DNA of 64,000 nucleotides from Escherichia phage ECBP1. Under the pieces are notes generated by a model, which saw only the letters and a program-made list of their open reading frames with translations, was not told where the DNA came from and did not search any database. The stretch lies in sequence record NC_018854.1, one strand, 5' to 3'. This document shows positions 3,852 to 60,292 of the stretch, piece after piece. Within the stretch, counting starts at the first letter, position 1; every line of letters starts with the position of its first letter. A program made the translations under genes and the position numbers.

Positions 3852-4162
3852 AAACTATTCTAGTAATCCATGATTCTACGTTTACTGATGTAGATAAGAT
3901 GATGCGTAATATTGATTATGTATCTCAGACAAGCCAAGCATTCAATGAAGAGTTTACTCTGTACTGCAATGCTGAATCTCCTCTGGTTCCTATCCTTAAG
4001 GAATCAGGTCTACCATTCTCTACAGAGAACTTCCCGGAAGAACCAGACTATGTAATCTCATTTATCTATGACTTACATGATGGTTCTGAAACTAGTGAAT
4101 TAGCTATGAACCAGTGGCGTAGTAAACGTCCTGTGTTTGCATTTCAGGTACTTAAACCATGA
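3848..4162 (+). CDS. hypothetical acidic protein
   Basis: 104-aa ORF with overlapping start and stop. Confidence 0.4.
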   Translation: MKTILVIHDSTFTDVDKMMRNIDYVSQTSQAFNEEFTLYCNAESPLVPILKESGLPFSTENFPEEPDYVISFIYDLHDGSETSELAMNQWRSKRPVFAFQVLKP

Positions 4163-4539
4163 AGATTATGTCATTAGGTGATGACACCAATGCTTTACTT
4201 GGTGTATCTGCACGTCCAATTATCATTGTTAATAAACATCACGGTAAATCCGGTGAGTATATTGGGCGTGGCTCACCATTAGGCAATCCATTCGTCATTG
4301 GTAAACATGGAACCAGAGAGCAAGTAATTGCTAAGTATAAAGTCTGGTTACAAGAACAGATTGATAAAGGTAATCCAGTTGTACTGGATGAACTTAATCG
4401 TCTGGGTAATAAAGCCATTGATGAGAAAGGATTAGCCTTACAGTGCTTCTGTTATCCAAAACCATGTCATGGTGAGGTTATTAAAGAGAAGCTAGTAAAG
4501 GCTATGTATAACTACTTTGTAGAAAATCTAAAAGGATAA
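4159..4539 (+). CDS. DUF4326-like protein
   Basis: Motif GRGSPLGNPF plus C-terminal CFCYPKPCHG, as I recall for DUF4326; not verified by HMM. Confidence 0.5.
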   Translation: MKIMSLGDDTNALLGVSARPIIIVNKHHGKSGEYIGRGSPLGNPFVIGKHGTREQVIAKYKVWLQEQIDKGNPVVLDELNRLGNKAIDEKGLALQCFCYPKPCHGEVIKEKLVKAMYNYFVENLKG

Positions 4540-5209: not shown

Positions 5210-6028
5210 ATGTACTCATCCATTGAACATCAGAAGCAACTCGAAAAACTATTCAATAAAAATCAGCTCTTGCCTCGCATGAGGAAGGAATTCGAGGACT
5301 CCGAAGAAATTGACTTTAAGGCATTCGCTGCCTATTTAGAAATTGATTATAAGCTGCTCATTGATGCAATGGTGCAGATTGCCCTACATAAACGTGCTGA
5401 CATCCAAACTATGATTGGTTCTCTAATGAGTCACTCAGATGATGCTCAGTACATCGCTGACTGTCTGTATAAGATGGCAGAGAATGACTGCTTCAACTAT
5501 GACCCTACCATCGACAAGTTCGGTGTTATCTATGAGATTAGTGAAGATGTACAGATGGAACTGGAAGCATTCCAGTACCCATTACCTATCGTAAGTGCTC
5601 CTAAGCCTGTTAAGTGTAACCGTGATACTGGTTACTACGAAAGCAGAGGTAGCATCATACTTAAGAAGAATCATCATGAGATGGATGTCTGTCTTGATCA
5701 CATCAACCGCATGAACAATCAACGTCTCTGCATTAACTGGGACGTTGCTAACTACGTAAAAGACTCCCGTCCTAACATGGATAAACCCAAAGAGGGTGAA
5801 ACCCGTCAGGACTATGAGAAGCGTGTTAAAGCCTTTGAGAAGTACAGCCGTACAGCTAAGGAAGTAATGGAGTTAGTGACCAAAGAAGGTAATAACTTCT
5901 CACTGGCTCACAAATATGACAAACGTGGGCGTACATATGCCTGTGGCTACCACATCAACTATCAGGGAACCAGTTACAACAAAGCTGTACTGGAGTTCGC
6001 TGATAAGGAGTTAGTAAATGAAGACTAA
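5210..6028 (+). CDS. N4-type RNA polymerase II small subunit (N-terminal part of a split T7-like RNAP)
   Basis: 272 aa directly upstream of the RNAP catalytic-motif subunit; size and synteny match N4 gp15/gp16 as recalled. Confidence 0.6.
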   Translation: MYSSIEHQKQLEKLFNKNQLLPRMRKEFEDSEEIDFKAFAAYLEIDYKLLIDAMVQIALHKRADIQTMIGSLMSHSDDAQYIADCLYKMAENDCFNYDPTIDKFGVIYEISEDVQMELEAFQYPLPIVSAPKPVKCNRDTGYYESRGSIILKKNHHEMDVCLDHINRMNNQRLCINWDVANYVKDSRPNMDKPKEGETRQDYEKRVKAFEKYSRTAKEVMELVTKEGNNFSLAHKYDKRGRTYACGYHINYQGTSYNKAVLEFADKELVNED

Positions 6029-6236: not shown

Positions 6237-7454
6237 ATGCAACTGTTAACCGCTAAACAATACCTGAAAGTAGATATCGCCAATAACTATGGTCTGGATA
6301 AAAAGACATGGGATGAGCGTATTGCCTGGTTCGATGAGAACGAAGCTAACCTGCTTAATCTGGTAGATGAAGCTGAAGATTCTGCACTGTTCTATGCTGG
6401 TGTAAATGCATGGAAAGATATGAAAGCAGGTAAGCCTATTGGTTATGCCGTAGCTCTGGATGCTACATCATCTGGCTTGCAATTACTGGCTTGTCTGACG
6501 GGTGACCGCTCTGCTGCTGAACTGTGTAACGTAGTTAATTACATGGGTGAGAATGGTAAGCCATTACGTCGTGATGCTTATACAGTCATCTATCACAAGA
6601 TGTTGGACATCCTTGGTGAAGCATCTCGTATTAAACGTAGTGACACTAAGCAGGCAGTTATGACTGCGTTCTACGGCTCAGAAGCCAAGCCTAAAGAAGT
6701 ATTCGGTGAAGGTATTCGTCTCAAGACTTTTGAGAATGTAATGGAAACTGTTGCTAGTGGTCCTTGGGCATTGAACAAGTTCTTACTGCAATGTGGTAAT
6801 CCAGATGCCAACCGTTACATATGGATACTTCCTGACAACTTCCACGCTGTCATTAAGGTCATGGTTCCAGAAGTACAGACTGTTAACTTCTTAGGCAAAC
6901 CGTTCGACATTACTCGTATGGTTCAGGGTACTGAAGAGAAGACTCGTATGCTCTCTGCTAACATCACCCACTCTATTGATGGGATGGTGGTACGTGAGAT
7001 GCTGCGTCGTTGTAACTTCGACCGTGACTTAGTGGAAGCTGTGCGAGAACTCTGCGATGAAGGTCCATCAGAATATGGGGAGATTGCAGGTAATCTGGAG
7101 AAGGTACAAGAGCTATGGAGCCATTATGAGAAGTCTGGCTTCTTATCTTTATCCATCCTGGACTATCTTGACCCATGTACTATTGCTTATGTAGACCGTC
7201 AGGTAGTAGCAGATATGATTGACACTCTGCCTAAGAAACCATTCCCTGTAATGACTGTACATGACTGCTTCCGTTGCCATCCTAACTACGGTAATGACCT
7301 GCGTCGTCAGTACAATCAGATCCTGTCTGATATTGCTAAGAGTGACCTACTGGGCTTCATCCTGTCTCAGGTACTGGGGCAAGAGTTCTCTGCTGGTAAG
7401 CTGGATGACAGCCTCTGGCAGGACATTCTTGAAACAGACTATGCGTTGAGTTAA
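6237..7454 (+). CDS. N4-type RNA polymerase II large subunit (T7-like single-subunit RNAP catalytic domain)
   Basis: Motif B-like KQAVMTAFYGS and motif C-like VHDCF. Confidence 0.75.
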   Translation: MQLLTAKQYLKVDIANNYGLDKKTWDERIAWFDENEANLLNLVDEAEDSALFYAGVNAWKDMKAGKPIGYAVALDATSSGLQLLACLTGDRSAAELCNVVNYMGENGKPLRRDAYTVIYHKMLDILGEASRIKRSDTKQAVMTAFYGSEAKPKEVFGEGIRLKTFENVMETVASGPWALNKFLLQCGNPDANRYIWILPDNFHAVIKVMVPEVQTVNFLGKPFDITRMVQGTEEKTRMLSANITHSIDGMVVREMLRRCNFDRDLVEAVRELCDEGPSEYGEIAGNLEKVQELWSHYEKSGFLSLSILDYLDPCTIAYVDRQVVADMIDTLPKKPFPVMTVHDCFRCHPNYGNDLRRQYNQILSDIAKSDLLGFILSQVLGQEFSAGKLDDSLWQDILETDYALS

Positions 7455-7461
7455 TAAACTA

Positions 7462-7495
7462 GCCTCATTCCTTCGGGAGTGAGGCATATTTTTTG
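7462..7495 (+). terminator. intrinsic terminator
   Basis: gcctcattcc-ttcg-ggagtgaggc followed by atatttttt. Confidence 0.65.
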
Positions 7496-7694
7496 CTTGG
7501 AGGTAACAACTATGCTAATCCCTTTTGAAGTAATCTCTCAGTTAATACTGATAGTTTTATCTGTACTGGTTCTGTCTACAATAGTTCATGCCCACAAATC
7601 TAAGTTTGCTTATTACTACTATGGAGCATACTCACTAGGCTGCTTTGTAATGGCAGGATGGATAGCTTTTGCTATCTACTGTGTAAACAACTAA
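7479..7694 (+). CDS. small membrane protein
   Basis: 71 aa with two hydrophobic segments. Confidence 0.4.
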   Translation: MRHIFCLEVTTMLIPFEVISQLILIVLSVLVLSTIVHAHKSKFAYYYYGAYSLGCFVMAGWIAFAIYCVNN

Positions 7695-7721
7695 CCCTCC
7701 TAACGGAGGGTTTATTTTTTT
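7695..7721 (+). terminator. intrinsic terminator
   Basis: ccctcc-taac-ggaggg followed by tttattttttt. Confidence 0.65.
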
Positions 7722-7768
7722 ACATGTCATGTATACTAACTCTGCTATTTACTTATGAGGAAATTGAT

Positions 7769-8602
7769 ATGCCAACTTTGAAAGTAGGTTTTAACAAAAC
7801 CACTAATGTTGCAACTGTACTGGATGCCAGTGGTTCTATCCCAGGTGGTTCCGTAGAAGTAGGAACCTTTGTACACCCAGATGCCACTTACCCTGATAGC
7901 TTAGTTATCTTCCATGGTGTTCGTGACCTGCTGTATAAACGCTCTGCTAAAGATCCTTCTAAAGAAGGCTTCTGGCCTAACAACATCGTGGATATGCAGT
8001 CTATCTCTATTGATATGAAAGCTACTCCACGACTGACTATTGCTACCAAACTGCCTCGTGTAGTCTCTACTATCGAAGGTGAAGACATCAACTGGCACGT
8101 TGATGTAGCAGGTGGGAAAGCACCATTTACTTATAAATGGCAATTCAAAGCTGATACTGCTGGAGCAGCATTCGCTGATATTGATTCAGGTGAGAACGAA
8201 TCCGCTGCTACTGCAACACTGACTCTTAATGACGTAACAGCTACTTCTGCTGGTACTTACAAAGTGATTGTTACTGATGCTAATGGAACCACGGTAGAGG
8301 ATGAGTCACTATTAGCTGTAGGCTATTACGAAGCAAGTTCACTGGTAGCTACTCCTGATTCGCTGGCTCTGTCTGTTGCTGCTGATACAACTGCTGGTAA
8401 GACTGTAACAATTGTTGCTATGCCTGTTGGTTCATCTTCTGGTGCTTTATCTATCAAGACTGCTCCAGATTCTGGTCGTGCTACGGCTACCATTGCTGGT
8501 AACGTACTGACAGTTAAGCCAGTGGCTGCTGGTGATACTACTTCTGTAGTAGTTACCAATGGTACGGTAGATATAACTATCCCTGTTACTGTTGCAGAAT
8601 AA
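7769..8602 (+). CDS. Ig-like (Big_2-like) tandem-domain protein
   Basis: Start moved from track 7658 to ATG 7769 (GAGG RBS; track start runs through a terminator); beta-rich T/V/A repeats such as TVTIVAMPVGSSSGALSIKTAP and VVVTNGTVDITIPVTV. Confidence 0.5.
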   Translation: MPTLKVGFNKTTNVATVLDASGSIPGGSVEVGTFVHPDATYPDSLVIFHGVRDLLYKRSAKDPSKEGFWPNNIVDMQSISIDMKATPRLTIATKLPRVVSTIEGEDINWHVDVAGGKAPFTYKWQFKADTAGAAFADIDSGENESAATATLTLNDVTATSAGTYKVIVTDANGTTVEDESLLAVGYYEASSLVATPDSLALSVAADTTAGKTVTIVAMPVGSSSGALSIKTAPDSGRATATIAGNVLTVKPVAAGDTTSVVVTNGTVDITIPVTVAE

Positions 8603-8652: not shown

Positions 8653-8682
8653 GACCTCCCTATTGAAGGGAGGTCTTTTTTT
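8653..8682 (+). terminator. intrinsic terminator
   Basis: gacctccc-tattgaa-gggaggtc followed by ttttttt. Confidence 0.65.
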
Positions 8683-8707: not shown

Positions 8708-8896
8708 ATGTACAAAGAAATTGCATTCTTCTCATTCTTATTAGGTGGTTTAATAGGTGCAGGATTTGTAGCTATTTCTAATACCTACTTTGGTTCTACT
8801 CCAAATTCTGTAACGCAAACCCTCAAGCATGAATGTGAATTGAATATTCCTCGTAATCAAAACTGTGTAATGCAGTTCGTACCGGAGAAGAAATGA
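8708..8896 (+). CDS. small membrane protein
   Basis: 62 aa with N-terminal hydrophobic segment (FFSFLLGGLIGAGFVAI). Confidence 0.35.
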   Translation: MYKEIAFFSFLLGGLIGAGFVAISNTYFGSTPNSVTQTLKHECELNIPRNQNCVMQFVPEKK

Positions 8897-9153
8897 ATAT
8901 CCACAATCTACATTTGGTTGAGAAACTGTATGAAGAATACAACAACAACCGACAACAATTAGCTAGTTTGAAGAAGTCACCACATATGGTGAAAGTATCA
9001 TTCAATGGTACGGATTTAGGACCACAAGCCCGTACAAGAATACTTCCTGGACTACTGTCCTTTTATCAAAGGAGGGTTGCTGTTTTAGAGAAACGCTTTG
9101 AACATTTAGGTGTAGATTTATCACCACTTCCAGATGAAGGAGAAGAGGGATGA
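8893..9153 (+). CDS. hypothetical protein
   Basis: 86-aa ORF. Confidence 0.4.
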   Translation: MNIHNLHLVEKLYEEYNNNRQQLASLKKSPHMVKVSFNGTDLGPQARTRILPGLLSFYQRRVAVLEKRFEHLGVDLSPLPDEGEEG

Positions 9154-9359
9154 AAGTAACAAATCGTTCTGAGAACAATGAGGTAACTTTCGGTGATGTG
9201 GAGCCTGCTAATGGTTTTATTTATAACCAGACAGTGTGTTTAAAGATTCACTTACCTGATGGTAAACCTGCTGCTGTTGCTGTAGAAACTGGTAAATCAT
9301 TCTGTCTATCTGCAAGTACATTCGTAACACCAATAAACCTGGAAGGATATTACCTTTGA
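9150..9359 (+). CDS. hypothetical protein
   Basis: 69-aa ORF. Confidence 0.4.
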   Translation: MKVTNRSENNEVTFGDVEPANGFIYNQTVCLKIHLPDGKPAAVAVETGKSFCLSASTFVTPINLEGYYL

Positions 9360-9541
9360 AATTAACACAGTCCCAAGCAATCTTCCTTCGTATGGTTCAA
9401 GGTGGCTCTGCCACCAGCAACCGTAATAACAAAACCGCACAGTCTCTTAAGAAGCTGGGCTTAGTACAGTTCAATGCTGGTCTTGGGTGGTCATTAACCC
9501 CTATCGGTGTACTTAAACTCAATGAATTAAAAGGTAACTAA
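9356..9541 (+). CDS. hypothetical protein
   Basis: 61-aa ORF. Confidence 0.4.
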   Translation: MKLTQSQAIFLRMVQGGSATSNRNNKTAQSLKKLGLVQFNAGLGWSLTPIGVLKLNELKGN

Positions 9542-9871
9542 ATGAAAACTTTATTTAAAGGTATTGCAGTAGCTGCACTGATAGCTTTGGCTCCAAATGC
9601 ACAAGCTATTGAACCAGAACCAATTTTGGAAGGTGCTCAGGCTTATCTGGACAACACCCATGATGAGTTCGGACAAGGATTCTTCATGGGCAGTATGATC
9701 TCTTACATCGAGAACACAAATAACTGTGTTCCAGATGGTATGAAGTATTCAGACATTCTACCTAAGATTGCCAAAGTAGTTATTTATGACTCTGCAATCC
9801 TCAAACTGAAGAATACATCTCAAATTGTTGTGTACTCAGTACACAAGGCGTATCCCTGCACTAAATCTTAA
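9542..9871 (+). CDS. secreted/periplasmic protein with cleavable signal peptide
   Basis: MKTLFKGIAVAALIALAPNAQA|IEPEP: n-h-c regions with an AQA cleavage motif. Confidence 0.5.
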   Translation: MKTLFKGIAVAALIALAPNAQAIEPEPILEGAQAYLDNTHDEFGQGFFMGSMISYIENTNNCVPDGMKYSDILPKIAKVVIYDSAILKLKNTSQIVVYSVHKAYPCTKS

Positions 9872-9905: not shown

Positions 9906-10958
9906 ATGGCAAGCATTGACTCCTTGACTGTATGTAATTCACGTCAAGCTCGTAACTTTATTATTCGTGCCCTGAAAGCAGGTAACGTACCATTCCTGAC
10001 TTCATCACCTGGCATGGGTAAATCTGCAATCATTCGTTCTATTGCAGAAGAATTTGGTATGAAGTTGATAGATCATCGTCTGTCTACTTCTGCCCCAGAA
10101 GATCTTTCTGGTCTACCATTCCGTAATGGTGACCGTGCAGAGTTTATTCCATTCGCTGATTTATTCCCTATTGAAGGGGATGAAGTACCAGAAGGTTATA
10201 ATGGCTGGCTCCTGTTCCTTGATGAGTTCAACTCAGCTAAGAAAGAAGTAGTAGCTGCTGCATACAAACTAATTCTCGACCGTATGACTGGTCAGAAAAA
10301 ACTTCATCCTAATGTGATGATTGTCTGTGCTGGTAACAAAGCTACTGACCGTGCCATTGTTAATCCTCTGGGTACTGCAATGCAGTCTCGTGTGGTTCAC
10401 TTTGAAATGGAACTTAACTTCGACATCTTTGTTGAAGATGTAATGATTCCTCAACAATGGGATGAACGTCTGGTTGCATTTCTACATGCTAACCCAGGTT
10501 ATCTGCATGACTTCGACCCAGCCCATAAGAACAAAACATTCTGTTGCCCTCGTACTTGGGACTTTGTTAACAAAGACCTTAAGAATCAGCCGGAAGGTGC
10601 TCTTCCTGATGAAGATTCTATCTACTATGCAGGTCACGTTACTGCTGGTAAGGCTACAGAATTTGTTCAGTTTACCCAGGTATATAATCGTATGATTACG
10701 ATTGAGAAGGTAGTCAAAGACCCTATGGGTTGTGCACTACCAGAAGATAACAACCTGTGTTGGGCTACCGTTAACCATCTAGCTAACAAAACTACTGAAG
10801 AGAACTTCGCTGATGTTCTTCAGTACATCGAACGCTTTAAAACGTTCACCCATAAGATTCTGTACTTCCGTACAGTAGGCAGAACATTACCAGAACTTCA
10901 GGCTACTCCTGAATGGCGTAAGGCTGCTGCTAATATCTCTCGTTACATTCACGGATAA
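9906..10958 (+). CDS. AAA+ ATPase (MoxR-like; N4 gp24-like)
   Basis: Walker A SPGMGKSA and Walker B-like LLFLDEF; immediately upstream of a vWA protein. Confidence 0.65.
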   Translation: MASIDSLTVCNSRQARNFIIRALKAGNVPFLTSSPGMGKSAIIRSIAEEFGMKLIDHRLSTSAPEDLSGLPFRNGDRAEFIPFADLFPIEGDEVPEGYNGWLLFLDEFNSAKKEVVAAAYKLILDRMTGQKKLHPNVMIVCAGNKATDRAIVNPLGTAMQSRVVHFEMELNFDIFVEDVMIPQQWDERLVAFLHANPGYLHDFDPAHKNKTFCCPRTWDFVNKDLKNQPEGALPDEDSIYYAGHVTAGKATEFVQFTQVYNRMITIEKVVKDPMGCALPEDNNLCWATVNHLANKTTEENFADVLQYIERFKTFTHKILYFRTVGRTLPELQATPEWRKAAANISRYIHG

Positions 10959-10962
10959 AACA

Positions 10963-12138
10963 ATGAACCAATTTCCTCAGCACACACTTAGTGATGAACA
11001 ACTCATGCGCGAATATGACCGTATTCAGGCGCAGGCGTTTCTCGGACGCAGTGCTGCCTTCTTTGGTTCATTACTATGTAGTCTTAAATTCTCATGGAAA
11101 CGTGAGGATTGTCCCACTGCATGTACTGATGGGATAGAACTCCATTTCAACCCAGACTTCTTTATCTGGATGTGTCCAGATGCAAGGGAAACAGTATTAA
11201 TGCATGAACTATGGCATGTGGCATATCTACATGACATCCGTCGTGGAAGCCGTGACCCGGAAGTCTGGAACCAGGCATGTGACCACTTCATTAACCTTCA
11301 GTTAGAGGAGGATGGTTACAAGTTCACTGGTATTAATGAAGGCATTTGCAAAGACCCTCAATATAAAGGATGGGTCGAAGAAGACATCTACGATGACCTG
11401 ATGAAGAACCCTCAGAAAAGGCAGAAGCCGTCAGGGGGTGCTGGAGCAGGTCTTGCTGGCGACATGAAATCCCCCACTTCGGGACAGTCCCAGGGTGCTG
11501 TCGTCAACAACGTAGTACGTGCAATGCAGAGCCAGAAGATGGCTGGTGGAACAATGCCCGGTAAGGGTGCTGGTCGTATGGAAGAGGTTATTACCCAATT
11601 CCTTAAACCAGTGGTTCCATGGCAAGAAGTACTCATGAACTTCTTTACCGACATTGATGACACTCACTATACGTGGGCCAGACCTAACCGTCGTTACACT
11701 GACATTTATCTACCTTCCCTGGAAGATGATGAAGGACGTCTACGACACCTAGCCTACTTTGAGGATGTATCTGGTTCTATTAGTAGTGCTGACTCTCTGC
11801 GTTTTAACTCAGAGGTTGCCTACGTTAAGAGTCAATTCAATCCTAAGAAGATGACCCTAATCACCTTCGACGATGTTATCCAGGAAGAAATAGACATCAC
11901 TGAAGAAGATACTTTCGAAGAGATTAAGATTACTGGACGTGGTGGTACAAACCTGGAACCAGTACGCGAATGGATTATTAAGAATAAGCCAACCGCTGCA
12001 ATCATATTCTCTGATATGTATGTTCGTCCAATGGAAGAATTGCCATTTGATATTCCTATCATCTGGTGTGTTCTGAATAATCCTAATGCTACCGTACCTT
12101 TTGGGGAGGTAGTTCATATCCCTAAAGGAATGAAATAA
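10963..12138 (+). CDS. von Willebrand factor A domain protein (N4 gp25-like)
   Basis: MIDAS-like DVSGSIS; zinc-metalloprotease-like HELWH in the N-terminal part. Confidence 0.6.
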   Translation: MNQFPQHTLSDEQLMREYDRIQAQAFLGRSAAFFGSLLCSLKFSWKREDCPTACTDGIELHFNPDFFIWMCPDARETVLMHELWHVAYLHDIRRGSRDPEVWNQACDHFINLQLEEDGYKFTGINEGICKDPQYKGWVEEDIYDDLMKNPQKRQKPSGGAGAGLAGDMKSPTSGQSQGAVVNNVVRAMQSQKMAGGTMPGKGAGRMEEVITQFLKPVVPWQEVLMNFFTDIDDTHYTWARPNRRYTDIYLPSLEDDEGRLRHLAYFEDVSGSISSADSLRFNSEVAYVKSQFNPKKMTLITFDDVIQEEIDITEEDTFEEIKITGRGGTNLEPVREWIIKNKPTAAIIFSDMYVRPMEELPFDIPIIWCVLNNPNATVPFGEVVHIPKGMK

Positions 12139-12957: not shown

Positions 12958-13200
12958 ATGGAATCTTTAGCAGCAATCCTTGTTTTCTTATTCATATTAG
13001 CTGTATACCTTATCCCTACTATCATTGCTTTTGCACGAGGCCATGCCTCTAAGTGGGGTATTGGTGTACTCAATATCGTATTAGGCTGGTCATTAGTATT
13101 CTGGGTAGTAGCACTGATTTGGGCACTGTCTAATAAAGGTCAGAATCAAGTTACAAACGTAACTGTTGTTCAAACCAATAGTGGCAGTAAAACAGAGTAA
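12958..13200 (+). CDS. superinfection-immunity-like small membrane protein
   Basis: IPTIIAFARGH...LNIVLGWSLVFWVVALIWAL matches the recalled Imm-superinfection family signature; two TM helices. Confidence 0.55.
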   Translation: MESLAAILVFLFILAVYLIPTIIAFARGHASKWGIGVLNIVLGWSLVFWVVALIWALSNKGQNQVTNVTVVQTNSGSKTE

Positions 13201-14147: not shown

Positions 14148-15091
14148 TGATTAAGGCATCAGTAATTGCAGATTCCGTTCATCCAGAAACAGGAACCCGT
14201 ATCACAACCTTTGAATTGGTTTATCCCCGATTCATTCACAGTGAGTTTATGACTCACCGTGTATTCAACCGCAATGCTTCAAGTAGCCGTGCTATTCCTA
14301 CCTCTAAGTTAATCGAACAGGTTCGCAATGAACCAGTGATGCCAAGTCACTGGGGCAAGAACCAGAAAGGTATGCAAGCAGATGGAGAACTCACTCCTAT
14401 GGAGATTGAGGATGCTAAGTTTATCTGGGATAACGCTGCATCTGCTGCTGCTGTGTATGCTGAACAGCTACGCCGTGGGCAAGTACATAAACAGATTGTT
14501 AACCGTATTCTGGAACCCTTCACACATATCCGTGTAGTGGTAACCTCAACTAGCTGGGCTAATTTCTATGGACTGCGTGACCACAAAGATGCACAACCGG
14601 AGATTCGTGAACTGGCTCAAGCAATGCGTAAGGCACATGAAGAAAGCACACCAAGAGCATTACCGTATGGGCAATGGCATTTGCCATATATTGCTCATAT
14701 TGACCGTGTTGGGGCTTACAATTTCTGCAAACGTAATCGAATTACACGCGATGAACCAAGTGATGCAGAAGTGCATGGACTACTTCTCAAGGTAAGTGCT
14801 GCACGCTGTGCTCGTGCTTCCTATAACAACTTTGAGGGACGTCCCTCTACTATCGAAGAAGATCTTGGCTTATTCGCTAAGTTAGTGGAAAACCAACCTA
14901 TTCATGCTTCACCAACGGAACATCAAGCTACGCCTATGAACCTTGGTGAGAAGTATGTGAATAACATGAACCCAGTTACCTGGGAACAAGGTGTTACATC
15001 CATGGATAAAGAAGGGAATCTGTACTCAGGTAACCTGCTCCACTTTATCCAATTCCGTAAATTAATTCCTGGTGAGACTATTACTGAATGA
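14147..15091 (+). CDS. thyX: flavin-dependent thymidylate synthase
   Basis: ThyX-type motif THRVFNRNASSS (RHRxxxxxxxS-like). Confidence 0.7.
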   Translation: MIKASVIADSVHPETGTRITTFELVYPRFIHSEFMTHRVFNRNASSSRAIPTSKLIEQVRNEPVMPSHWGKNQKGMQADGELTPMEIEDAKFIWDNAASAAAVYAEQLRRGQVHKQIVNRILEPFTHIRVVVTSTSWANFYGLRDHKDAQPEIRELAQAMRKAHEESTPRALPYGQWHLPYIAHIDRVGAYNFCKRNRITRDEPSDAEVHGLLLKVSAARCARASYNNFEGRPSTIEEDLGLFAKLVENQPIHASPTEHQATPMNLGEKYVNNMNPVTWEQGVTSMDKEGNLYSGNLLHFIQFRKLIPGETITE

Positions 15092-15327
15092 AAAAACTAG
15101 CTCTATACGCAATGCTAATTAGTACCCTACTAACACTGACCTACGCATACAAAGTTGCCTTTGTCGTAGAAACAGATATGCAGTTCATTCGAGCTAGTAT
15201 TCTGTTCTTTGTAAGCGAGATTGGTTTATGGTGTGTTTACTACTTTGCTCGTGACTACGAAGCAATTCGTGAGCAAGAAGAAGTGAAAAAACAAATGATA
15301 CGATTTGTAGAACAAAATCGTAAGTAA
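15088..15327 (+). CDS. small membrane protein
   Basis: 79 aa with two hydrophobic helices. Confidence 0.45.
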   Translation: MKKLALYAMLISTLLTLTYAYKVAFVVETDMQFIRASILFFVSEIGLWCVYYFARDYEAIREQEEVKKQMIRFVEQNRK

Positions 15328-59169: not shown

Positions 59170-59697
59170 TTATTCCTGTTCAAAAAGTTTACGGTCAGCC
59201 TGAATCTGTTTACCCAACTCAATTAGTTGGCTGTCACGGAGTCTAACAGTTGCCCGGAGTTCTTCAACCAAACGTCTGCCTTCTTCAAGACTGTTGTCGA
59301 GTCTGGCTGCATGGCTTGCAAGACTTCTGCACTCAAAGGTTCCGGCTTCGGCTTGACGTTTATATACCGATGCTCGTCTTTCAGACTGTTGCATCCGGCT
59401 GTCATAATCACTGCTAACGCGAGCAAGCTCGCTTGCGTAATTACTCTCAGCCGTCTGCAACCGGGAAGTGAGTAACCCGACTTCGTAACTATGGTTTCTT
59501 TGGAGAGCATTGTATTTGTCCTGTAATTTTTGTAGTGCCTTCTGATCTTCAACCTTTTGGGCATCCCACTTCTTTTGAACAGTAGACTGTCCATTGGAAT
59601 TACCCCAAAAGTAAATGGTGGCCCCGAGGACCACCACCAGAAGATAAGGCCAACCTTTAGAGATTAGCATCTTCATTACATGCCTCCAGTGGCACAT
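59170..59697 (-). CDS. i-spanin (Rz-like)
   Basis: N-terminal TM helix then coiled-coil-like sequence; start may be at an internal Met. Confidence 0.5.
59223..59510 (-). CDS. o-spanin (Rz1-like lipoprotein) embedded in the +1 frame of the i-spanin gene
   Basis: [12 protein letters not shown] lipobox-like segment, then Pro-rich KPKPEP; start uncertain (track ORF 59223-59594). Confidence 0.4.
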   Translation of the reverse strand: MLSKETIVTKSGYSLPGCRRLRVITQASLLALAVIMTAGCNSLKDEHRYINVKPKPEPLSAEVLQAMQPDSTTVLKKADVWLKNSGQLLDSVTAN

Positions 59698-60292
59698 TGC
59701 CTATTCGGTTAGCTACCCAACCATACGTAAAGTCTGGCATGTTTAATGAGGTGTAGTGGTTAAGTTGTTTAGCATCAAGTAACTTAATCATTACCTGACA
59801 TGCTGCAACTTTGCCTCGTTTTTTCTGTAATGCTTTATATGCATTAACAGTACTTGTACCGACTTTACCATCAACCTGTATTTTAGGGTAGTCTTTGCCA
59901 TCACGGGACATTTCATTAAGAGATTGCTGCAACCACTTAGCCGGACGGGTTACACCCGTATTAACACCAGCATCTACCAGCTTATGTGTTACAGCAGGAG
60001 ATATATCAGCGAAGGCTACGAAGTTAGGCTTAAGTACGTAATCATCAATGTATATCTCAGCAGCCATCTCTTTAGATAAACCCTTCATAGAACCATCCCA
60101 GCCATACTCAGTAGCCAGAACTTCTTTGTGAGATTTAGCTACAGCTTGGGTAATACCATGATTGGTTTCACCACCTGGGTCACGAGGATTATTTACATAT
60201 CCCCCTTCCATATAAAACACTGCCCCCAGGATAGCAGCGACAACTCCTCCCACTGCACCACCTTTCGTAGCAAGTTTCTGTTTAGCTTTCAT
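59657..60292 (-). CDS. signal-anchored (SAR-type) endolysin, GH108-like N-acetylmuramidase
   Basis: N-terminal GGAVGGVVAAILGAVFY then EGGYVNNPRDPGGETNHGIT. Confidence 0.6.
   Translation of the reverse strand: MKAKQKLATKGGAVGGVVAAILGAVFYMEGGYVNNPRDPGGETNHGITQAVAKSHKEVLATEYGWDGSMKGLSKEMAAEIYIDDYVLKPNFVAFADISPAVTHKLVDAGVNTGVTRPAKWLQQSLNEMSRDGKDYPKIQVDGKVGTSTVNAYKALQKKRGKVAACQVMIKLLDAKQLNHYTSLNMPDFTYGWVANRIGNVPLEACNEDANL

What the first reader, a model, noticed from the sequence alone, without database searches (positions are those of the whole stretch)
9542..9871. Early-encoded secreted small protein
A clear Sec signal peptide with an AQA cleavage site precedes an 87-residue mature domain containing two Cys. 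Phage-encoded periplasmic proteins from early operons often modify receptors or the envelope.
Basis: seen in the sequence. Interest (0 to 1): 0.4.

Follow-up and report, generated by a model that had tools for sequence, protein, structure and literature searches.

The report
Phage-encoded T6SS immunity-like periplasmic protein
A small secreted protein of an N4-like E. coli phage has the fold of the bacterial "antidote" proteins (Rap1a/Tai4a) that block cell-wall-cutting toxins injected by rival bacteria, so the phage probably uses it to shield the wall of the cell it has infected.

Summary
Window 9542..9871 (+) is a real, conserved 109-codon gene with a 22-residue Sec-type signal peptide (AQA|IEP), an 87-residue mature domain and two invariant cysteines.

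The window is a Gamaleyavirus (G7C/N4-like) coliphage. The gene lies downstream of the phage RNAPII genes, so it is probably middle class rather than early.

The mature domain is a distant member of the Rap1a/"Tai4a" fold, the periplasmic immunity proteins against Ssp1/Tae4 type VI secretion peptidoglycan endopeptidases.
- All 35 family members give sub-threshold Pfam Rap1a matches.
- The cysteine spacing (44 residues) equals that of the disulfides in both crystal structures.

No effector gene accompanies it, so it would be an orphan. The gene is a sharply bounded hypervariable cassette: 35% amino-acid identity between phages whose neighbouring ATPase is 97% identical.

My best reading (about 0.45) is that it neutralises incoming amidase effectors in the periplasm of the infected cell. 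The main rival is a Spackle-like block of another wall hydrolase.

UniProt and a few GenBank records already carry the Rap1a/Tai4 label. I found no paper or experiment on it.

The parts
9531..9535 (+). Shine-Dalgarno-like AAGGT, 6 nt before the ATG. The stop codon of the upstream 61-aa ORF (TAA, 9539-9541) abuts the start, which suggests translational coupling.
9542..9607 (+). Sec-type signal peptide, 22 codons: MKTLFKGIAVAALIALAPNAQA, with predicted cleavage AQA|IEP.
   Evidence: signal-like N-termini in 123 of 126 family members
9608..9868 (+). Mature 87-residue domain, a five-helix bundle of the Rap1a/Tai4a fold.
9674..9691 (+). Most conserved motif, Q45-G46-F-F-M-G50, in helix 2. Helix 2 is the dimerisation helix in Rap1a and AtTai4.
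9725..9727 (+). Cys62 codon, the first half of the predicted disulfide. Invariant in the family.
9857..9859 (+). Cys106 codon, the second half of the predicted disulfide, 44 residues after Cys62, as in Rap1a C78-C122 and AtTai4 C80-C124. The Pfam match ends here, at the last profile position.
9560..9860 (+). Hypervariable cassette. It is 42-55% nt identical to phage UE-S5b, while the flanks are 85-100% identical.
8708..9541 (+). Four upstream small genes of unknown function (62, 86, 69 and 61 aa), chained to the gene by overlapping stop/start codons and lying behind the hairpin at 8653-8675. Probably the same transcription unit.
9906..12138 (+). Conserved downstream neighbours: an AAA/MoxR-like ATPase (9906..10958) and a DUF2201 metallopeptidase/VWA-like protein (10963..12138). 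They are syntenic partners in several N4-like lineages; no functional link is shown.

Best explanation
The gene encodes a Sec-exported periplasmic protein that is a distant, phage-borne member of the Rap1a/'Tai4a' fold of type VI secretion amidase-immunity proteins.

Proposed mechanism:
- The precursor is expressed in the pre-replicative (probably middle) phase and exported. This step is shown by sequence only.
- The signal peptide is cut after AQA22.
- The 87-residue domain folds into a five-helix bundle, stapled by a Cys62-Cys106 disulfide made by the host DsbA. The fold is shown by modelling; the disulfide is inferred by analogy.
- It dimerises through the conserved helix 2 (inferred).
- It binds and sterically plugs the active site of an NlpC/P60-type peptidoglycan DL-endopeptidase that reaches the periplasm of the infected cell. 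The most likely target is a Tae4/Ssp1-like effector injected by T6SS-armed competitors. This would keep the infected cell intact until phage release.

It would be an orphan immunity gene, because no effector is encoded with it. Its deeply divergent alleles would correspond to different effector specificities. The target and the specificity model are both inferences.
For: Fold:
- The AF2 model built from a 35-sequence alignment has pLDDT 94.2, pTM 0.85 and five helices.
- In Foldseek against the PDB, the only hits with TM above 0.5 are AtTai4 (6ije/6ijf, TMq 0.62-0.67, probability up to 0.82) and Rap1a (3zfi/4bi8, TMq 0.60-0.66). All other hits have TM below 0.4.

Sequence:
- Pfam Rap1a (PF18602) is the only family matched consistently. 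It is hit by 35 of 35 members, with a best E of 1.4e-5.

Family hallmarks from the literature:
- The described features are a cleaved signal peptide, five helices, a dimer through alpha2, and a disulfide C78-C122 in Rap1a or C80-C124 in AtTai4, both spaced 44 residues apart (PMC3852654; PMC6277958).
- In this protein the cysteines are C62 and C106, also 44 residues apart. Both are invariant, and the second lies 3 residues from the C-terminus.
- Helix 2 is the least variable segment.

Orphan immunity and arms-race signature:
- Orphan Rap1a genes exist in bacteria.
- This gene is 35% aa identical between phages whose adjacent ATPase is 97% identical, and the nucleotide identity break coincides with the ORF.
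- At least 7 classes exist at under 60% identity.

Other annotators reached the same label: UniProt names for the Bp4 and SP5M orthologues, and 'Tai4' or 'Rap1a' in several GenBank phage records.
Against: - No member reaches the Pfam gathering score (16-24 bits against 27.7).
- Sequence-only PDB searches found nothing.
- No Tae4-like gene is nearby or anywhere in the phage.
- An exhaustive HMMER search of 1.84 billion representatives found only 7 clusters. Wherever a contig length or gene context could be read, these lie on roughly 70-kb contigs or in loci with N4-like gene order. No bacterial relative was reached. There was also no match in 5,426 complete E. coli genomes or in plasmids. The family therefore looks old and phage-resident, which fits a phage-intrinsic target as well as it fits T6SS defence.
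- Positions projected from Rap1a's Ssp1 contacts are not significantly more variable than the others (p = 0.25).
- Export, disulfide formation, dimerisation and binding are all untested.
Confidence: 0.5

Rival explanations
1. This is a Spackle-like superinfection exclusion or lysis-timing factor. The Tai4a scaffold has been retargeted in N4-like phages to inhibit a different periplasmic wall hydrolase. Candidates are a virion-associated or endolysin hydrolase of a competing phage, a host NlpC/P60 endopeptidase (for example MepS) that incoming phages need in trans, or the phage's own endolysin.
For: - T4 Spackle is a precedent: an early, periplasmic, small helical phage protein that stoichiometrically inhibits the gp5 tail lysozyme (PMC7677548, PMC7650644).
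- The family is confined to N4-like phages and sits in the same pre-replicative neighbourhood, close to the AAA ATPase and DUF2201 genes, across lineages whose ATPase is only 75-80% identical. Gene order differs in one lineage, where it follows a second AAA gene. This suggests a long-standing phage-intrinsic role.
- Related phages annotate other superinfection-type membrane proteins in the same region.
Against: - No NlpC/P60 or other endopeptidase domain was found in the virion or lysis proteins scanned. The phage endolysin is GH108 plus PG_binding_3, a different enzyme class from the Tai4a targets.
- A conserved host enzyme as target would not explain 35% identity between alleles in near-identical backbones.
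- Spackle did not appear among the fold matches.
Confidence: 0.25
2. This is a periplasmic helical protein with an unrelated role that merely keeps an old Tai4a-like scaffold. Possible roles are binding an envelope component, receptor masking, or acting as partner or substrate of the adjacent ATPase/VWA pair.
For: - Homology is very distant (6-10% identity, sub-threshold HMM scores).
- The gene is repeatedly adjacent to AAA ATPase genes in different arrangements.
Against: - The ATPase and the DUF2201 protein have no signal peptides and are cytoplasmic, so direct partnership across the membrane is unlikely (sequence).
- Every characterised member of this fold is an endopeptidase inhibitor.
- Nothing found here points to a receptor.
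Confidence: 0.15
3. The ORF is not a functional gene, or the signal peptide is really an uncleaved membrane anchor.
For: No experimental data exist. SignalP could not be run.
Against: - dN/dS is 0.08-0.27.
- The gene is conserved in 55 isolated phage records and more than 120 metagenomic clusters.
- There is a canonical AXA site with a helix-breaking Pro at -5.
- The soluble domain gives a high-confidence globular model.
Confidence: 0.03

Closest known systems
Rap1a (SMA2260) of Serratia marcescens, founding member of the 'Tai4a' immunity fold (PDB 3ZFI; complex with Ssp1, 4BI8; Pfam PF18602)
   Same: - It has a cleaved N-terminal signal peptide and is periplasmic.
- Its mature domain is about 90-100 residues and forms a compact five-helix bundle.
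- Its intramolecular disulfide has the same 44-residue spacing, and the second Cys lies close to the C-terminus.
   Different: - Only about 6% of structurally aligned residues are identical, and the Pfam score is below threshold.
- The phage protein is shorter (87 against about 97 mature residues).
- It is encoded by an obligately lytic phage with no Ssp1/Tae4 partner gene.
- Rap1a's active-site-plugging Gln84 has no evident counterpart, although that residue is not conserved even in AtTai4.
Agrobacterium tumefaciens Tai4 (Atu4346; PDB 6IJE, and complex 6IJF)
   Different: AtTai4 has a longer alpha2 helix and a longer alpha1-alpha2 loop, and its gene sits next to its cognate Tae4. It is 32% identical to Rap1a, whereas the phage protein is far from both.
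Orphan T6SS immunity genes in bacteria (for example the Cronobacter sakazakii orphan Rap1a ESA_03939)
   Same: These are immunity-type genes without a cognate effector, thought to protect against non-self effectors. They show arms-race-style diversity.
   Different: They are chromosomal, in bacteria that live on. Here the carrier is a virulent phage, so any benefit lasts only for the latent period. I found no publication describing this.
Bacteriophage T4 Spackle (gp61.3)
   Same: It works alike in outline: a small, helical, signal-peptide-bearing phage protein made before replication, which acts in the periplasm as a stoichiometric inhibitor of a wall hydrolase (PMC7677548, PMC7650644).
   Different: It is not a fold match (absent). 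Its target is a lysozyme of superinfecting T-even phages, not an NlpC/P60 endopeptidase. The resemblance is functional analogy only.
Canonical Tai4 (E. cloacae and S. Typhimurium Tai4, Rap2a, Rap1b, Rap2b)
   Same: These are also periplasmic, disulfide-bonded, dimeric helical immunity proteins against Tae4.
   Different: They have a different six-helix fold. None appeared among the structural matches. The GenBank label 'Tai4' on some phage orthologues is therefore loose; 'Tai4a/Rap1a-like' is the accurate name.

Membership tests
Tai4a / Rap1a immunity proteins (Pfam PF18602) | N-terminal Sec signal peptide, giving a periplasmic location | tested here: met
   The signal peptide is 22 residues with an AQA|I site. 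My heuristic passes in 123 of 126 family members. Rap1a has a 26-residue signal and AtTai4 a 25-residue signal. This is a sequence prediction only.
Tai4a / Rap1a immunity proteins (Pfam PF18602) | Compact five-alpha-helix fold superposable on 3ZFI and 6IJE | tested here: met
Tai4a / Rap1a immunity proteins (Pfam PF18602) | Conserved cysteine pair forming an intramolecular disulfide (Rap1a C78-C122, AtTai4 C80-C124) | tested here: met
   C62 and C106 are invariant in all classes, have the same 44-residue spacing, and the second is near the C-terminus.
Tai4a / Rap1a immunity proteins (Pfam PF18602) | Sequence score at or above the Pfam gathering threshold (27.7 bits) | tested here: not met
   The query scores 16.1-16.8 bits and the best relative 24 bits. 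All 35 members match, but all below the cut-off. NCBIfam gave no hit.
Tai4a / Rap1a immunity proteins (Pfam PF18602) | Stable homodimer through helix alpha2 | not tested
   No multimer prediction was available. The only indirect evidence is that alpha2, which carries the QGFFxG motif, is the least variable segment (1.56 bits against 1.75-2.31 elsewhere).
Tai4a / Rap1a immunity proteins (Pfam PF18602) | Encoded next to a cognate Ssp1-like Tae4 effector | tested here: not met
   The neighbours are small unknown genes, an AAA ATPase and a DUF2201 protein. No NlpC/P60 is annotated in a related full genome or found in the virion and lysis proteins scanned. This is compatible only with orphan status, which is known for Rap1a homologues.
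Tai4a / Rap1a immunity proteins (Pfam PF18602) | Binds and sterically blocks a Tae4-family DL-endopeptidase | not testable with these tools
   This needs biochemistry or complex modelling. The projection of Rap1a contact residues onto the phage family was inconclusive (p = 0.25).
Canonical Tai4 (EcTai4, StTai4, Rap2a) | Six-helix Tai4 fold with a C48-C108-type disulfide | tested here: not met
T4 Spackle-type superinfection exclusion proteins | Spackle fold or sequence similarity | tested here: not met
   Spackle is absent from the PDB fold matches and there is no sequence hit. The functional analogy stays open.

The most novel reading that the evidence does not exclude
A whole genus of obligately lytic coliphages (Gamaleyavirus), together with related N4-like lineages, carries a cassette-like, rapidly diversifying orphan T6SS immunity gene. 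An infected cell would thereby be temporarily vaccinated against peptidoglycan-amidase attack by neighbouring bacteria, so interbacterial warfare would act as a selective force on virulent phage genomes. The different alleles would protect against different effector variants.
Probability: 0.4. Interest if true: 0.7.

Novelty: new member of a known kind. Interest (0 to 1): 0.5.

Why it matters
If the protein neutralises T6SS amidase effectors, virulent phages would not merely be bystanders in contact-dependent bacterial warfare. They would actively protect their infected cell from it.

That would add T6SS immunity to the list of phage auxiliary functions. It would also bear on phage therapy in dense polymicrobial sites, where the yield of infected cells may depend on T6SS-armed neighbours.

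The allele cassette offers a natural set of specificity variants for studying effector-immunity recognition on a minimal 87-residue scaffold.

If the target is instead another wall hydrolase, it would be a second, structurally independent example of the Spackle strategy. It might also point to the unidentified peptidoglycan-breaching activity that N4-like phages use during entry.

Tried and rejected
Searches that returned nothing useful:
- Sequence searches of the PDB with the single protein, three family profiles and a distant relative gave only noise.
- NCBIfam and PADLOC gave no hits. PHROGs returned only an unannotated family, phrog_11132.
- Three indexed protein searches and one exhaustive HMMER search were aimed at bridging to bacterial Tai4a proteins. 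They reached only phage-borne relatives, so no profile-profile comparison with a true Rap1a alignment could be built.
- blastn against 5,426 complete E. coli genomes and tblastn against plasmids gave no match.
- A viral-contig scan added no new contexts. It returned only a 100% identical contig that is probably the source genome.
- Literature searches for phage-encoded Tai4, Rap1a or T6SS immunity found no relevant paper.

Analyses that failed or were unavailable:
- The single-sequence AlphaFold run was useless (pLDDT 43.5).
- The afdb50 fold library was unavailable.
- I tested whether positions projected from Rap1a's Ssp1 contacts are hypervariable. The result was not significant (Mann-Whitney p = 0.25), and the projection itself rests only on the cysteine anchors.

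Hypotheses considered and set aside:
- The phage's own endolysin is the target. It is GH108, a muramidase, not NlpC/P60.
- A virion-borne NlpC/P60 is the target. No such domain was found, and N4 ejection proteins are reported to lack hydrolase activity.
- The protein is a lipoprotein or a Tat substrate. There is no lipobox cysteine and no RR motif (sequence).
- The two extra genes next to the P0012 allele are paralogues. They are unrelated cytoplasmic proteins.

Full report
**What the window is.** The region is about 93% identical at the nucleotide level to Gamaleyavirus coliphages (G7C-like, Schitoviridae, N4-like), such as PE007, EC1-UPM, Bp4 and St11Ph5. The large ORFs follow the N4 plan. 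Rightward genes include the two RNAPII subunits, an Ig-like 'Hoc-like' protein, an AAA ATPase, a DUF2201/VWA protein, nucleotide-metabolism and replication genes and rIIA/rIIB. Leftward genes include the roughly 3,576-aa virion RNA polymerase, the structural genes and the lysis genes. An IMG/VR contig of 69,855 bp carries a 100% identical copy at the same coordinate and is probably the source genome.

**Checking the observation.**
- The ORF at 9542..9871 (+) encodes 109 aa: MKTLFKGIAVAALIALAPNAQA|IEPEP...AYPCTKS.
- The N-terminus has two lysines, a 10-residue uncharged core with mean hydropathy 2.98 and a single -3/-1 site, AQA|I. Among 173 window ORFs of at least 60 aa, it has the strongest such core.
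- There is no lipobox cysteine and no twin arginine.
- The mature part is 87 residues, with Cys62 and Cys106.
- An AAGGT lies 6 nt upstream, and the start abuts the stop of the preceding 61-aa ORF.
- dN/dS against three orthologues is 0.08-0.27.
- A signal-like N-terminus is retained in 123 of 126 relatives, although the classes share only 18-40% identity. The three exceptions look like truncated start calls, because P0127 shows the longer N-terminus.

**Timing.**
- The gene lies downstream of the RNAPII genes (5210..6028, 6237..7454) and of terminator-like hairpins at 7462-7485 and 8653-8675.
- It is the last of five small genes, 8708..9871, chained by overlapping or abutting stop and start codons.
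- In N4, gp1, gp2, gp15 and gp16 are early products, and the rightward genes beyond them are middle genes transcribed by RNAPII (PMC4496689).
- By synteny the gene is pre-replicative, but probably middle rather than early. This is an inference.

**What the protein is: sequence evidence.**
- Pfam gives one weak hit, Rap1a (PF18602), with E 0.017 and 16 bits against a cut-off of 27.7. It covers residues 36-106 and profile positions 17-90 of 90, so it ends exactly on Cys106.
- PHROGs places the protein in an unannotated family. NCBIfam, PADLOC and sequence searches of the PDB give nothing.
- Close homologues (84-93% identity) and, after profile searches, more than 120 clusters of distant homologues were found. 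Most of those whose contig length is known come from contigs of about 70 kb, that is, from N4-like phages.
- Each of 35 representative members, scanned on its own, hits Rap1a. The best E is 1.4e-5. No other family recurs in more than two members.

**What the protein is: structural evidence.**
- With the 35-sequence alignment, AlphaFold gives a confident model: pLDDT 94.2, pTM 0.85 and five helices. The single-sequence run had failed.
- In Foldseek against the PDB, the only matches with TM above 0.5 are A. tumefaciens Tai4 (6IJE, 6IJF) and S. marcescens Rap1a (3ZFI, 4BI8). Everything else is below 0.4.
- The literature defines this 'Tai4a' fold as follows: a cleaved signal peptide, five helices, a dimer through alpha2, and a folding-critical disulfide, C78-C122 in Rap1a and C80-C124 in AtTai4 (PMC3852654; PMC6277958).
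- The phage protein's invariant cysteines have the same 44-residue spacing. Its most conserved segment is helix 2, which carries Q45-G46-F-F-x-G50.
- I therefore regard 'distant member of the Rap1a/Tai4a fold' as well supported, at about 0.9. Strict Pfam membership is not met.
- The canonical six-helix Tai4 fold is not matched, so the GenBank label 'Tai4' is loose.

**Genomic behaviour.**
- Among isolated phages, 55 records carry a relative. Nearly all are Escherichia or Shigella Gamaleyaviruses (one record is a Klebsiella phage). Of these, 21 carry this 109-aa allele and 34 carry alleles below 40% identity, including G7C itself.
- In an alignment of the window with UE-S5b, nucleotide identity is 85-100% in the aligned flanks on both sides, apart from the 69-aa ORF (9150..9359) that UE-S5b lacks. 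It drops to 42-55% precisely over 9560-9860, the body of the gene.
- The adjacent ATPase is 97% identical in protein between these two phages, while this protein is 35% identical. For two further lineages the figures are 80% against 40%, and 75% against 26%.
- At least seven classes exist at under 60% identity.
- Within a class, selection is purifying.
- The gene is therefore a sharply bounded, exchangeable, hypervariable cassette in a conserved backbone. That pattern is expected for a specificity determinant in an arms race.
- In more distant N4-like phages the homologue stays in the same pre-replicative region, near AAA ATPase genes, though the order varies.

**How it most likely works.**
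- Every characterised member of the fold is a periplasmic, dimeric, stoichiometric inhibitor that plugs the active-site cleft of an Ssp1-like Tae4 NlpC/P60 DL-endopeptidase delivered by a type VI secretion system.
- Orphan copies without an effector exist in bacteria and are thought to protect against non-self effectors.
- The phage encodes no such enzyme. Its endolysin is GH108 plus PG_binding_3, and no NlpC/P60 domain was found in the virion or lysis proteins scanned.
- The simplest reading is an orphan immunity protein that protects the wall of the infected cell from amidase effectors of competitors until the phage is ready to lyse. Allelic classes would reflect effector diversity.
- I give this functional reading about 0.45. 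Combined with the near-certain fold assignment, I report 0.5 for the overall statement.

**Rival explanations.**
- The family looks ancient and phage-resident. No bacterial relative was reachable by an exhaustive HMMER scan of 1.84 billion representatives, and nothing was found in complete E. coli genomes or plasmids. This fits a phage-intrinsic target equally well.
- The main rival (0.25) is a Spackle-like role. T4 Spackle is a periplasmic phage protein that inhibits the tail lysozyme of superinfecting phages (PMC7677548, PMC7650644). N4 entry is thought to need a peptidoglycan hydrolase supplied in trans (PMC12633501).
- A conserved host enzyme as target would fit poorly with the allelic hypervariability.
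- A scaffold retained for an unrelated envelope function (0.15) cannot be excluded, given the remote similarity.
- A projection of Rap1a's Ssp1-contact residues onto the family showed no significant excess variability (p = 0.25), so it does not discriminate between these readings.

**Novelty.**
- The label is not new at database level. UniProt names the Bp4 and SP5M orthologues 'Rap1a immunity protein domain-containing protein'. Several recent GenBank records say 'Tai4' or 'Rap1a', and a TPA record cites the Rap1a complex.
- Most records still say 'hypothetical protein'.
- Eight full-text searches found no paper that discusses or tests a T6SS-immunity-like gene in a virulent phage.
- I classify it as a new, divergent, phage-borne orphan member of a known kind. 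Interest is moderate, because the idea of a virulent phage arming its infected cell against interbacterial weapons is testable with simple assays and is not established.

Noticed in passing
window 9150..9359 (+): This 69-aa ORF (PHROG 18793, unknown function) is a presence/absence polymorphism. It is present here and in EC1-UPM and cleanly deleted in UE-S5b (alignment gap about 9140-9379).
   Followed up: partly
window 8708..9871 (+), hairpin 8653-8675: Five small genes are chained by overlapping or abutting stop and start codons, directly behind a strong terminator-like hairpin followed by a T-run. This implies a promoter in the roughly 30-nt gap, or read-through. All four upstream genes belong to PHROG families of unknown function.
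   Followed up: partly
window 12958..13200 (+) and 15088..15327 (+): There are two more small envelope-directed proteins in the same pre-replicative arm. One is an 80-aa protein with two hydrophobic segments, called 'superinfection immunity protein' in phage 24-32N. The other is a 79-aa protein with a signal- or anchor-like N-terminus.
   Followed up: no
window 7658..8602 (+): An Ig-like 'Hoc-like head decoration' or 'fibritin' gene sits among the pre-replicative rightward genes, between two terminator-like hairpins and far from the leftward structural module. The listed 314-aa ORF probably starts too far upstream, since related phages annotate 277-314 aa.
   Followed up: no
L012 (IMGVR_UViG_2595698805_000001, 69,855 bp), match 4001-4261: This contig carries a 100% identical copy of the mature domain at the same coordinate as in the window, so it is probably the source genome. 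That genome is absent from the 'phages' BLAST collection, where the best hit is only 93.6% identical.
   Followed up: partly
L003 1120-2204 and L011 2252-3333: In a more distant N4-like lineage the Rap1a-like gene directly follows, with a 0-2 nt gap, a second AAA/AAA_2 ATPase gene of about 249 aa. Repeated adjacency to AAA ATPases in different arrangements is unexplained.
   Followed up: no
window 59657..60292 (-): The endolysin is GH108 plus PG_binding_3, an N-acetylmuramidase. It sits in a holin/endolysin/spanin cassette next to the portal gene.
   Followed up: yes
BFVD hits A0A6J5LJN0, A0A6J7W580, A0A6J5KWX0 (uncultured Caudovirales): Other, unrelated uncultured phages also carry proteins that UniProt names as Rap1a-domain proteins (TMq 0.49-0.65 to this model). 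T6SS-immunity-like genes may therefore be more widespread in phages than in this genus alone.
   Followed up: no
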